Source: Eledone cirrhosa
Taxonomy: Eukaryota
Length of the DNA stretch: 64,000 bases
Assembly (NCBI GenBank): GCA_964016885.1
Contig: OZ024740.1
Coordinates: forward strand, 84,940,001-85,004,000
Direction of reading: 5' to 3'
A model generated the notes under the pieces. The model saw nothing but the letters and a program-made list of their open reading frames with translations. It did not search any database and was not told where the DNA came from. Position 1 is the first letter of the stretch, and each line of letters starts with the position of its first letter. The position numbers and the translations under genes are program-made. Shown here in pieces: positions 43,197 through 53,665 of this stretch.

Positions 43197-43397
43197 ATAG
43201 GAAAAAGTATGACCCCGACGGCAGAGCTCAAGCCGTTTCGACGGCTATTTCTGGACTCCAGAAATAGCCGTCGAAACGGCTTGAGCTCTGCCGTCGGGGT
43301 CATACTTTTTCCTATTTCCCACTCTACTACCCTAAGTATTGAGTACTCTGGTGCGTTATGGTCCATCTGGTTCCTTACCACAATTCCTTTGTTAACA
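43197..43397 (+). mobile_element. Foldback copy of half-HHR element (perfect 59-bp palindrome plus tail)
   Basis: Arms 43197-43255 and 43257-43315; contains CGAAA-CGGC-ttGAGCTCt-GCCG-TC-GGGGTC. Confidence 0.75.
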
Positions 43398-43469
43398 CAT
43401 ATATATATATATATGTATGTGTGTGTGTTATACGTATGTTTGTATGTATATATATGTGTGAGTGTATAC

Positions 43470-43501
<32 letters not shown>

Positions 43502-43889
43502 TATATACAGTATATGTTTGTATGTATATATATATATATATGTGTGTGTATACATACAGACACGCACGCACCACGCGTATATATATATATATATATAAAT
43601 GTGTGTGTGTGTTTCTGTGTGTGCGTGTGTGTGTGTTTCTGTCTGTGTGTGAGTGTGTGTATGTGTGTGTGTGTCTATGTATGTGTGTGTGTGTGTACTT
43701 TTTTTTACAATATCTGGTATCAGTAAAATTGGATAAAGTTTTTATTTGAGATTAAGAATGGTAGAGAACCAATTTTAAAAGGCAATCTAGGAGGGTGTGG
43801 TTGTCTGCATGTATAAACAATATGAGTTCTTATAGCAGATGGAAGTATATAGATTATGGAATATTAAGAAATTAATAACCAGCCTCCTC

Positions 43890-46040
43890 TCCACCACTAA
43901 CCTCATTACCACTAACCTTACCACGACCACCACCACCACCATCACAATTACCACCATCATCACCACCAACAACCACTAGCGCCACCACCACCACCACCAT
44001 CACCACCACAACCACCACCATTTCAATCGCCACCACCATCACCATCACCATCACCACGACCATCACCAGCACCACCACCATCACAACGACCACCATCACA
44101 ACAACCACCACCGCCACCAGCACCACCACAACCATCACCACAGCCACCATCACCACCATCACCACCATCACCACCACAACCACCACCACCACCACCATCA
44201 CAACCACAACTACTACCACAGCCACCATCATCACCAACACCACCACCACCACAACAACAACAATCACCACAACCACCATAACCACCACCATCAGCACCAC
44301 CATCATCATCAACACCGCCACTACCACCATCATCACCACCATTACAATCACCACCACCATCATCACCATCACAAACATCATCACCATCACCACCACCATC
44401 ATCAACACTGCCACGACCACCATTACAATCGCCACCACTATCATCACCATCACAAACATCATCACCATCACCACCATCACCATCACCATCATCCTGATCA
44501 CCCGCATCACCACAATCATCATTACAACCACCATCACCACCACCACAATAACAACCACAACTACCACCACCACCACCACCATCATCATCACCATTACCAC
44601 TACCATCACAACAACCACCACCACCACAACCATCACCACAACCAGAACCATCACCGCCACTGCTGCCACCAGTCACCATTACCACAACCAACACCACCAC
44701 CACAACTATCGCCACAACCAACAACACCACCACAACCATCACCACAACCATCACTACCACCACCACCACCACAACCACCATCACAACCAACCACCACAAC
44801 CAACCACCACAACCATCACCACAACCACAACCATCACTACCACAACCAACACCACCACCACAACCATCACTACAACCAACAACACCACCACAACCATCAC
44901 CACAACCACAACCATCACTACCACCACCACCACCACAACCACCACCACCACAACCACAACCACCACCACCACAACCACAACCATCACCACAACCAACACC
45001 ACCACAACCACAACCATCACTACCACCACCACAGTCACCATTACCACAACCATCACCATAACCAACACCACCACAACCACAACCATCACCACAGTCACCA
45101 TTGCCACAACCAACATATCCACAACCATCACCACAACCACAACCATCACTACCACCACTACTACCACACCACCATCACAACAACAACCACCACCACAACC
45201 GTCACTACAACCACAACCATCACCACAACCACCACCACCACCACAACCATCACTACCACCACCACCACCACACCACTATCACCACAACCAACACCACCAC
45301 AACCATCACCACAACCAACACCACCACAACCATCACCACAACCACAACCATCACCACAACCAACACCACCACAATCATCACCACAACCACCACCAATCAC
45401 CACAACCAACACCACCACAACCATCACCACAACCACAACCATCACCACAACCAACACCACAACCACAACCATCACCACAACCAACACCACCACAACCATC
45501 TCCACAACCACAACCATCACCACAACCAACACCACCACAATCATCACCACAACCACCACCAATCACCACAGCCAACACCACCACAACCATCACCACAACC
45601 ACAACCATCACCACAACCAACACCACAACCACAACCATCACCACAACCAACACCACCACAACCATCTCCACAACCACAACCATCACCACAACCAGCACCA
45701 CCACAATCATCACCACAACCACCACCAATCACCACAGCCAACACCACCACAACCATCACCACAACCACAACCATCACCACAACCAACACCACAACCACAG
45801 CCATCACCACAACCAACACCACCACAACCATCTCCACAACCACAACCATCACCACAACCAACACCACCACAATCATTACCACAACCACAACCATCACCAC
45901 AACCAACACCACCACAATCATCACCACAACCACCACCAATCACCACAACCAACACCACCACAACCATCACCACAACCACAAACATCACTACCGCCACCAC
46001 AACCATCACCACAGTGACCATTGCCACAACTACTATAATA
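43890..46040. repeat. ACC/ATC/ACA trinucleotide-derived low-complexity array with higher-order units
   Basis: Directly visible; recurrent ~165-210 bp blocks at 45280-45960. Confidence 0.9.
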
Positions 46041-50500: not shown

Positions 50501-52970
50501 TGTTCTCAGACACGAGGGGACGAAAGCCGTTCAATGGGCCCGAGTGACAGAGGCGCGTCGTGGCAACAAAGCCACAATCCCGGGTAAATGTGTGAAGCTT
50601 TTCAGCGACACTTCGCTCAGCTGTTCGAGGGCAGCGGCGGGCCGGATCGAGGGATGAACTTTAGTGTCTACCTCGACGGACTGCCGCGGCTCTAGGCCAC
50701 TGAGGCGGAGTGTTGCGAACAGCCGATAACAGCCGTTGAAGTACGGGAGGCAATGACTGGGTGCACAAGGGGTAAATCGCCTGGTTTGGATGGTCTGCCC
50801 TATGAACTTTACGTACAGATGCCAGATTTGTTCGGAGGCCTCTTGGCGGACGTCTACTGCAACTGGCAACAGAACGGGAGAATTCCCAGCTTTCTGAGCC
50901 GAGGAGCTGTGGCGCTGCTGAGAAAGGATCCGAACAAGGTGGATAACATAGATAATTTCAGGCCCATAACTCTTCTAAACACAGAGTTCAAGATTTTGGC
51001 GAAGGTGCTAGCAAAGAGGTTGGCGCTTGTCGTTGGTGGTCTGGTAGGAGAGGCGCAGACATGCGCCATTCCCGACAGATCCATCCACAACAACCTCCAC
51101 CTCATGCGATACATCGTAGAGAGGGTAGCTAGGGAACCTGGCACGAGTGGGTCCTTGATCAATTTAGATCATTCGAAAGCTTTCGATAGGGTCGACCATC
51201 GTTACCTAGTGGCAGTCCTGAGGGCGGCTAGCTTTGGGCCCGTCTTCAGAGGCTGGATCGCTGCCATCCACAGCAACATCTGCTCTGTGGTGAGAGTGAA
51301 CGGTCACCTTTCGGAACGGTCACATTACTGCACAAACTGGAGACGTTGAGGGGGATCCTGCGCAAACTAGGATGCGGAAGATCCGTTTCAGCATATGCGG
51401 ACGATGTCACCGCAGTGGTGTCGAACACCAAACACATCGAGGCGATCGGCACTACACTAAGAGAATACGAAGCGGTGACAGGAGCGATGATCAACCAGGA
51501 AAAGTCAGTGGGCCTGCAGCTCGGCACCTGGAGAGGCAGGTCCATGCCCTCCAACAGCGTCTTCGGGCGCTGGACGGACGGACCGGTTAAATTGGTAGGG
51601 GTCTGGTTCGGTCCGGACCTCCAGACGGACAAAAACTGGGACGAGGTGACGAGCAGGGTGGCTTCTCTCACCCAGAAATGGGCGGAGATGAAGCTATCCC
51701 TGAAAGGTCGAGCGGAGGTGGCTAACGCGTACATCGCGTCCGTCATCTACTACCGCCTGACCGTCGTACCTTGTCCTAAGCCCCGCCTGACTGCGCTGGA
51801 GCGTTTGCTCTTTCGCTTTTTGTGGAAGGGACGCGCTCCGATGGTCAGGCGGTCCATCTGCTGTCAACACCCGCTACGTGGAGGGCTGGGATGCCGTGGC
51901 TGATGATGCGCAAACACGCGCTCAGGCTACGACATCTCCACCCCTTCCTCGACGGTGATCAGGTGTGGTCGCCGTTTGCTAGACGCGTCTTTCCCCAGCT
52001 CGTCTCCTTGATGGAGCTGCAGTCCTGGGTCAAGCGAAGACCGAGAGGGAGCGCTTGGAGACTGGAATGTCTTCAGGCGCTCACAGCCCTCGACCAATAG
52101 AGGATTAGTGGAGGGGAAGAGCGACGACGTACTTGGGGAAACTCTAGGCGTCGATGAAAATTAACTAGCCAATCTCTTCGGAAGAACTTTCGGGCCGGGG
52201 CCTCTGGACAACTTCCAGAAATCCCTGGCCTGGCAGTGCTACCGAGGAGCTTTGCCAGTTCGGGATAAACTCTACAGGCATGGAGGTGCCGTCAGCCGGG
52301 CATGTCCGAGATGCGCGCAGGGCGACGAAACCGTCCTGCACGCACTCGTCCAGTGTCCGAGCATTGCTGACTTGTCGGTTTATGTCGAACACCTGCTGTC
52401 GTGTGTAGGACGGATCCAGCTATCAGCTGAGTCCATCGTGAGGATTGCGCCGCGCTCTTCCTTTAGCCGGGAAGGGCAGGCTGTTTTTATCTGTCTGGTG
52501 GCCATGGCGAAAGAGATAGTATGGTGGACACGTTTGAAAGGGCTGAAGACGAGCACTTACCTCTTCGGTGATGCCCTGATTAACTTTTGCAAATTGCATT
52601 TGAAAAAGAAAATTAGAGTAGAGAGGGAAGTGCTCTCTTCCCAGCATTTTGTTGAAAGATGGGTGAGAGAGGCAAGAATGGCCCGAGTGAATGGGCCTAT
52701 TCTGAGTATGTGTCTGTAAATTAAAGGTGGAAAACTGGGAGAGGGCACTTGCCCTGGTGGTCAGGGTCACTGTGGCTTTTTAATGGGCTTTCTCCACGAA
52801 TGTCCCTCGGAAGTCTCCCCCGTATTGGGGAATTTTTCATTGTTACTTTTTTGTTACATCCTCTGTTTTTTTTTTTACACGCAGAAATGCCCATTTGTAC
52901 CGTCCTGTATTGTCCTGTACTGACCTTTATGTCTACTTTATGTAAACCCTTGTAGTTAATAAAGAAAGCA
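47531..52970 (+). mobile_element. Near full-length Tx1/L1-group LINE, frameshifted
   Basis: ORF1 has a CCHC knuckle (CVVCGEGTHLRAFC) and a Pro/Thr-rich tract. ORF2 starts at 49455 with APE (GSINARGL, ISET, VYAP, LVGDWN, TDH), RT (KSPGLDGLPYE, NFRPITLLN, DHSKAFDRVDH, YADD) and a C-terminal CPRC..DETVLHALVQC. AATAAA at 52958-52963. The 5' boundary is uncertain. Confidence 0.92.
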
Positions 52971-53039
52971 TAATGCACTGGGTAATTGCTGGCCTTGTGC
53001 CTAAAGTAGAAACAATTATTATTATTATTATTATTATTG

Positions 53040-53107
<68 letters not shown>

Positions 53108-53454
53108 TCAATGAAAAAGAATTAGTTGATTTAGAATCAGCTGACTTATATATAACAGATTTCAAGCACTCAACGATATATGTTTAACCGGAGTTTTATA
53201 ATAATAATTGTTTCTACTTTTGGCACAAGGCCAGCAATTACTCCAGTGTATTACTGGTACTTTATTTTATCGACCCAGTAAGGATGAAAGGCAAAGTTAA
53301 CCTCGGCAGGATTTGAACTCAGTCCATAAAGGGCCGTAACTCTTTGCTGCAAAGCATGGCGTCCGACCCTCTACAATAAATTGGGATGGTCTAAACTTAG
53401 ACTCTAAAGTAACTGTCTTTCGTTTATTACAAATAAATAAATAAATAAATATAT

Positions 53455-53665
53455 ATAGGAAAATGTATTATGACCCCGACGGCAGAGCTCAAGCCGTTTC
53501 GACGGCTATTTCTGGACTGAAATAGAGTCCAGAAATAGCCGTCGAAAGGGCTTGAGCTCTGCCGTCGGGGTCATACATTTTCCTATTACCCACTCTACTA
53601 CCCTAAGTATTGAGTACTCTGGTGCGTTATGGTTCATCTGGTTCCTTACCACAACTCTTTCGTTA
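53455..53665 (+). mobile_element. Second foldback copy of half-HHR element
   Basis: Arms 53455-53518 and 53526-53585 with a 7-nt loop; same family as 43197-43397. Confidence 0.75.

What the first reader, a model, noticed from the sequence alone, without database searches (positions are those of the whole stretch)
43197..53665. Independent copies break just upstream of the ribozyme GAAA, and two fold back
Seen: the copies at 43197 and 53455 are palindromes centred ~17 and ~22 nt upstream of the HHR GAAA, with different centres, which suggests independent events. The 10071 relative also ends ~23 nt upstream of GAAA. No short helix II is visible in the retained part, implying a large loop II. 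Inference: a stable loop II pseudoknot like those at 4407 and 31773 stalls reverse transcription. That would produce recurrent truncation and foldback inversion, linking ribozyme structure to palindrome formation in the genome.
Basis: partly seen in the sequence, partly recalled or inferred. Interest (0 to 1): 0.7.

Follow-up and report, generated by a model that had tools for sequence, protein, structure and literature searches.

The report
Penelope palindromes centred on transcription start
These palindromes are back-to-back copies of the front end of a very abundant Penelope-like jumping gene; thousands of copies stop at the same spot, likely the capped start of the element's RNA rather than a ribozyme roadblock, and the two halves were likely copied separately from the two cut ends of the target DNA.

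Summary
Both palindromes are real and independent, and 10071 also has a small inverted stub. All three are front-end stubs of Hydra-type Penelope-like elements in (TA)n. The shared break (+1, 18 nt before GAAA) is a genome-wide hotspot: 44 of 93 sampled forward arms end within 7 nt of it (9 expected), and only 2,020 of 8,637 exact arms continue 5 nt further. Long copies supply the missing half: a type I hammerhead with a U3-A8 core and a long nested helix II, not a pseudoknot. +1 is the A of a TYAGTY initiator in both families, and symmetric joints carry a non-parental G/C 195 times against A/T 18 times, as a reverse-transcribed cap would leave. In 59 of 79 inverted pairs the geometry does not fit simple snap-back. 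Best reading: two target-primed reverse transcriptions start at fixed internal sites (+61, +140), run off the capped RNA 5' end and are joined head to head. No RNA data were available. The layout is known; its mechanism is open in the papers I read. This scan reached the same reading earlier on other DNA of this genome.

The parts
43197..43258 (-). Inverted arm, element positions +61 back to +1 plus one extra C (likely cap-templated); last two bases shared with the forward arm
   Evidence: sequence read directly
43257..43394 (+). Forward arm +3 to +140: 3' half of the hammerhead, internal start site +61, 80-nt tail ending at (TA)n
43261..43302 (+). 3' half of a type I hammerhead: helix II 3' strand, GAAA (43273-43276), helix III with palindromic loop GAGCTC, GUC cleavage triplet (cut after 43295), helix I 3' strand; the 5' core half is absent
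53455..53518 (-). Inverted arm +61 to +1, with a 3-nt duplication
53519..53525 (+). 7-nt junction insert identical to element +7..+13, ending in G before +1 (likely locally templated filler)
   Evidence: inference
53526..53665 (+). Forward arm +1 to +140; GAAA at 53544
10071..10211 (-). Forward arm of the sister family, starting at the homologous +1 (10211)
10210..10222 (+). Short inverted stub of the sister family from its internal start site, overlapping the forward arm
   Evidence: read by eye against sister copies

Best explanation
The palindromes are head-to-head pairs of the first 61 and first 140 bases of a Hydra-type Penelope-like element, likely made when two target-primed reverse transcriptions from the two cut strands of a (TA)n site run off the likely capped 5' end of the element's RNA and their ends are joined. 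Shown: the parent element, the two fixed outer ends at TA, the hotspot at +1, the initiator match, the excess non-parental G/C. Inferred: Pol II starts at +1 inside helix II of the hammerhead, so the RNA's front carries only half a ribozyme and is not cut there; the enzyme (a predicted dimer in a relative) primes at +61 on one strand and +140 on the other; both cDNAs end at +1, often with a C opposite the cap; host end-joining fuses them bluntly, by 1-3 nt of microhomology, or with short templated filler, trimming either arm.
For: Parent: stubs continue into an RT + GIY-YIG frame; successive +1 sites 3.19 kb apart in L252. Hotspot: 44 of 93 forward ends in -7..+7, p about 1e-20; 59 of 79 inverted ends in -7..+12; 2,020 of 8,637 exact arms continue to -5. 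Initiator: TTAGTC in this family, TCAGTC in the sister, the upstream pairing strand not conserved between them; TYAGTY with A as +1 is the Drosophila consensus (PMC6483594, passages). Cap sign: base before +1 is G 2,121, C 1,463, A 260, parental T 4,793; symmetric joints have central G/C 195 vs A/T 18; G precedes only 6 of 43 ends beyond +12; in long copies G replaces T at -1 in only 3 of 29 substitutions. Two primers: 61 of 79 inverted arms end at +61; 62 of 66 ending at +57..+64 run into TA; 33 of 79 inverted arms hold at least 10 nt absent from the forward arm, 12 with no overlap; 59 of 79 do not fit snap-back; 103 + 213 symmetric joints have 0-1 nt spacers, too tight for a hairpin loop. 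Long copies also end at +61 into TA. A relative cleaves and extends both strands and starts internally at two sites in vitro (PMC11167929, main text read).
Against: No RNA run was available, so the start site and cap are inferred. The parental T is still the commonest base at -1, and 18 of the first 50 two-base joints are parent-templated to -2: the edge is a few bases wide. 10 of 29 local G cases can be read as part of the inverted arm. An enzyme that adds C at any run-off end would mimic a cap. +1 lies in the 3' strand of a 7-bp upper hairpin. 45 of 93 forward ends lie between +8 and +115, with a mild excess at +34..+40 (7 ends, about 3 expected). Later deletions in palindromes could create some of the asymmetric pairs, and 20 of 79 pairs fit snap-back. 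Automated end calls err by several nt in some rows.
Confidence: 0.7

Rival explanations
1. One reading: stable ribozyme structure (a loop II pseudoknot) stalls the enzyme and the cDNA folds back on itself.
For: A large helix II domain exists (-13.9 kcal/mol) and +1 lies inside it; 20 of 79 pairs fit snap-back; some junction fillers copy nearby sequence.
Against: No pseudoknot found; the stronger lower helix is passed without a hotspot; 59 of 79 pairs and 316 spacerless or 1-nt joints do not fit a hairpin loop; the fixed +61 end needs a second primer or a fixed jump.
Confidence: 0.08
2. Twin priming as in the best explanation, but the common end is a pause in the upper hairpin of a longer RNA, not its 5' end.
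For: +1 sits 3-4 nt inside the upper stem; T is commonest at -1; some arms run a little further.
Against: Upper stem is weak (-4.0 kcal/mol) and differently built in the sister family, while TYAGTC is kept; non-parental G/C excess.
Confidence: 0.13
3. Self-priming on an antisense template, as proposed for head-to-head PLE palindromes (PMC3846280, passages).
For: Published reading of the same layout.
Against: The joint maps to a sense-strand initiator with a cap-like G, and both outer ends sit at fixed sites on TA; arms are often non-nested.
Confidence: 0.05
4. One ancestral hairpin amplified as a unit, or assembly artefact.
For: Perfect arms in 43197.
Against: 98 distinct junctions in 100 copies; subfamily variants shared by both arms of a copy; joints from the inverted arm's end into downstream forward arms also stand in short-read contigs (one sample, possibly the assembly's source).
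Confidence: 0.02

Closest known systems
EN+ Penelope-like element insertions with an inverted 5'-truncated pLTR and one-sided tail (PMC8557442, PMC3846280; passages)
   Same: Head-to-head inverted copy, tail on one end only, palindrome at the junction, hammerhead in the pLTR, (TA)n targets
   Different: Tail is about 80 nt, not 30-40; most copies are gene-less stubs; the junction is mapped to an initiator with a cap-like base, which I did not find reported
Hydra clade of PLEs, e.g. Hydra-1_Obim (PMC8557442 section 11 and supplement rows)
   Same: C-terminal GIY-YIG, RW motif, DKT, CxCX5C linker, no CCHH, CxxC and CxH motifs, (TA)n
   Different: A different family by eye (ORF and ribozyme differ from the listed Hydra-1_Obim); unit about 3.2 kb; no tree built
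Poseidon from Anolis in vitro (PMC11167929, main text)
   Same: Two fixed internal RT start sites bounding the tail; RT copies through an uncut hammerhead site; both strands primed
   Different: That work did not address joining of two cDNAs or the RNA 5' end
L1 twin priming (Ostertag and Kazazian 2001; only the reference line seen, mechanism recalled) and the untemplated cap G of full-length L1/SVA (PMC4859970, passages)
   Same: Two primers give an inverted 5' part; extra G at complete 5' ends
   Different: In L1 the two parts barely overlap and the internal site varies; here both sites are fixed and both cDNAs cover the same first 61 nt
U3-A8 core hammerheads of Schistosoma Cercyon PLEs (PMC4209133, passages)
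   Same: U3-A8 covariation, long helix II, palindromic loop III
   Different: Here helix II is extended by a second hairpin and split by the likely start site

Membership tests
EN+ Penelope-like element | RT followed by GIY-YIG endonuclease in one frame | tested here: met
   Motifs read by eye in broken natural copies and against published alignments; Pfam gave 0 hits for 4 pieces
EN+ Penelope-like element | pLTR repeated at both ends, inverted truncated copy, one-sided tail | tested here: met
Hydra clade | RWK-like motif, DKT, CxCX5C linker, CCHH absent, CxxC and CxH near the end | tested here: met
   RWR, DKT, CNCPDRSTC, one Cys between the GIY and YIG parts, CNLC and CKH; definitions
Hydra clade | (TA)n insertion preference | tested here: met
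   10,903 tail ends abut TA (pattern required TA); 62 of 66 inverted outer ends run into TA without that requirement
Hydra clade | Phylogenetic placement | not tested
   no tree built
Type I hammerhead (long copies) | Core, three helices, NUH triplet | tested here: met
   U3-A8 core in 1,838 exact places with all four bases at N7 among the 100 listed; CUGAUGA in the sister; helix II 84.5% paired with 2 double changes between families (15 sequences, effectively one comparison); Rfam gave no hit on the stubs
Type I hammerhead (stubs in the window) | Complete core in cis | tested here: not met
   5' core half and helix I/II 5' strands absent
Type I hammerhead | Self-cleavage | not testable with these tools
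   needs an assay
Loop II pseudoknot hammerhead | Loop II pairs with a distant loop | tested here: not met
   best 3-4 bp, shuffle p 0.86 (one natural copy)
Pol II initiator start site | TYAGTY with A at +1 | tested here: met
   consensus is from Drosophila
Pol II initiator start site | Capped RNA 5' ends at +1 | not testable with these tools
   indirect G/C excess only

The most novel reading that the evidence does not exclude
The promoter is placed inside the ribozyme on purpose: the RNA's capped front carries a dead half-hammerhead, the downstream pLTR carries the whole one and is cut after +41, so +1..+41 is repeated at both RNA ends like a retroviral R region. Internally primed cDNA runs to the cap and jumps to the 3' end to rebuild pLTR-ORF-pLTR; the thousands of palindromic stubs are twin strong-stop DNAs that failed to jump. 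This would explain pLTR regeneration, the tail and the inverted repeat in one cycle.
Probability: 0.2. Interest if true: 0.8.

Novelty: new member of a known kind. Interest (0 to 1): 0.5.

Why it matters
How Penelope-like elements make head-to-head inverted ends is stated as unresolved (PMC8557442) and was earlier ascribed to self-priming on an antisense template (PMC3846280). A family with over ten thousand short arms gives base-level statistics that favour a sense, capped template and two primers, and names exact positions (+1, +61, +140) for CAGE and for the existing in vitro assay. It also shows a routine source of thousands of perfect palindromes in an animal genome. The insertion layout itself is known.

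Tried and rejected
My first idea that junction GAG was a remnant of a CUGAUGA core directly upstream: rejected, the 8 hits are junction products and the true core lies about 50 nt upstream. Naiad clade: rejected, endonuclease is C-terminal. Pfam: 0 of 4 pieces hit. RNA: no RNA holder listed. Cap scar in long copies as a sign of strong-stop transfer: not found, G in 3 of 29 substitutions at -1; this neither supports nor excludes the novel case. over-called inverted arms through TA in a reference (84 of 100); redone (79 of 100, missing a few short stubs). One search folded a stretch without the upstream half and was uninformative. Downstream promoter motifs (DPE, MTE; recalled) were looked for by eye and fit poorly. 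Sequence look-up in earlier findings gave nothing. Samples were selected for similarity and not used for the counts.

Full report
Numbering: +1 is the A that starts the short element (window 53526; 18 nt before the GAAA).

Observation. The copy at 43197 is a perfect 59-bp inverted pair around one base; the copy at 53455 has a 7-nt spacer, one mismatch and a 3-nt duplication. Centres are 17 and 22 nt before GAAA. Each is (TA)n, an inverted arm from +61 back to about +1, a forward arm from about +1 to +140, and (TA)n. Forward arms differ at 7 of 138 positions, each copy has its own variant in both arms, and the flanks are unrelated next to the junctions, so they are independent. The 10071 copy (about 72% alike) ends at the homologous base 10211, followed by a short inverted stub of its own family.

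Family and parent. A 20-base core matches 12,784 places exactly (arms, not insertions; pattern excludes C at its first place; reversed control 0) and 10,903 tail ends abut TA. One copy continued past the tail into a reading frame; that frame has 1,039 candidates. [quoted passage not shown] RWR, DKT, CxCX5C, no CCHH, and CxxC/CxH match the definition of the Hydra clade (PMC8557442 section 11; supplement rows). Pfam gave no hit and I built no tree.

The ribozyme. Long copies supply the upstream half: helix I of 4-5 bp, a U3-A8 core (1,838 exact places; N7 takes all four bases among the 100 listed; this variant is reported in PMC4209133), a 9-10 bp helix II, an internal loop and a 7-bp upper hairpin, GAAA, helix III with a palindromic loop, and GUC with the cut after +41. 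The sister family has a CUGAUGA core and two double changes in helix II (15 sequences, effectively one comparison). The stubs hold only the 3' half.

Breakpoint map. I took the first 100 tail-anchored places on contig 1 and aligned them to five natural long copies. Seven run beyond -30. Of the other 93, 44 end in -7..+7 (9.0 expected if uniform, p about 1e-20), 4 in -30..-8 and 45 in +8..+115. The foot of helix II has 2 ends, +34..+40 has 7 (about 3 expected), +41..+48 has 4. 79 of 100 have an inverted arm; 61 of these end at +61 outside, and 59 end in -7..+12 inside. 98 of 100 junctions are distinct. Genome-wide, 8,637 exact arms reach +1 and 2,020 continue to -5; substitutions are too rare to explain the drop (29 at -1, 22 at -2 in long copies).

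What +1 is. It is the A of TTAGTC here and TCAGTC in the sister parent; the hexamer is kept while its pairing partner is not. TYAGTY with A as first transcribed base is the Drosophila initiator of paused promoters (PMC6483594), and D. virilis Penelope has an internal promoter with an initiator in its pLTR (PMC2377424). The base before +1 is T (parental, or the last base of a bluntly joined inverted arm) 4,793 times, G 2,121, C 1,463, A 260. G is 55% of non-T bases against 6 of 43 at ends beyond +12. Symmetric joints with both arms at +1 have no spacer 103 times, one G/C 195 times, one A/T 18 times and two bases 59 times (of the first 50, 18 parent-templated to -2 and 18 compatible with a cap base). 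An untemplated G marks capped full-length L1 and SVA copies (PMC4859970). Against: 10 of 29 local G cases may belong to the inverted arm, the edge is a few bases wide, +1 lies in a weak hairpin, and no RNA was available.

Foldback or two primers. A snap-back copy needs a loop and can only recopy what the first cDNA holds (geometric argument, mine). 33 of 79 inverted arms hold at least 10 nt missing from the forward arm, 12 without any overlap; 59 of 79, and both window palindromes, do not fit snap-back; 316 joints have 0-1 nt spacers. +61 also serves as the 3' end of long copies. In vitro a relative nicks and extends both strands, starts at two internal sites bounding the tail, uses uncut RNA and is predicted to be a dimer (PMC11167929). 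Later deletions may account for part of the asymmetry, and 20 of 79 pairs fit snap-back.

Mechanism. Shown: parent, fixed ends, hotspot, motif, G/C excess. Inferred: Pol II starts at +1; the enzyme nicks (TA)n on both strands and primes at +61 and +140 of the front pLTR; both cDNAs run off the cap; end-joining fuses them. Long copies would arise from the same sites in the downstream pLTR or by a jump (novel case, untested apart from one negative scar test).

Known and new. The layout (inverted truncated pLTR, one-sided tail, junction palindrome) is described (PMC8557442, PMC3846280; passages). PMC3846280 proposed self-priming on an antisense template; PMC8557442 lists the origin of these structures as open. 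Four searches of an open-access library found no paper mapping the junction to a capped start or invoking twin priming for these elements; subscription papers are not covered. The bioRxiv retrozyme preprint (part 1 of 5 read; supplements not seen) concerns tandem forms. Earlier notes of this scan reached the same reading on other DNA of this genome; I looked after forming mine, and they are not independent support.

Verdict. Real, recurrent and non-random; a new member of a known kind, with genomic evidence that makes an open mechanistic question directly testable. Interest 0.5.

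Noticed in passing
window 33578-33793: 103-bp-arm palindrome of a different, ~170-nt dispersed family (D15) with no hammerhead seen; its 10-nt spacer reads as the family's own continuation with 2 nt of microhomology, as a true snap-back would leave. Useful contrast to the Penelope joints.
   Followed up: partly
window 53815-53870 (+): A separate canonical minimal hammerhead (Rfam Hammerhead_1, 31.7 bits, below the 34 cut-off) in another TA-flanked stub directly after the 53455 copy.
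   Followed up: no
window 31773-31855 (+): Hammerhead with 2-bp helix II and 34-nt loop; 7 bp of possible loop II/loop III pairing, shuffle p 0.055. Unrelated family.
   Followed up: partly
window 4407-4486 (-): Hammerhead-like motif with CUGAGGA core and large loop II; 6 bp of G-U-rich cross pairing at best.
   Followed up: partly
window 7540-9030: Nested inverted repeats with an 87-nt tandem unit; Histone3 stem-loop Rfam hits are probably chance hairpins in a DNA-transposon-like repeat.
   Followed up: no
window 43279-43291 and family: Loop III is a self-complementary hexamer (GAGCTC), which could pair two RNAs for twin priming or dimeric cleavage.
   Followed up: no
G000, 195 symmetric joints: The central C rebuilds a perfect TCAGTC initiator on one strand, so some stubs might be transcribed again.
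   Followed up: no
G000:C1 list: Long copies also often stand in opposite-strand pairs a few kb apart, i.e. long head-to-head insertions.
   Followed up: no
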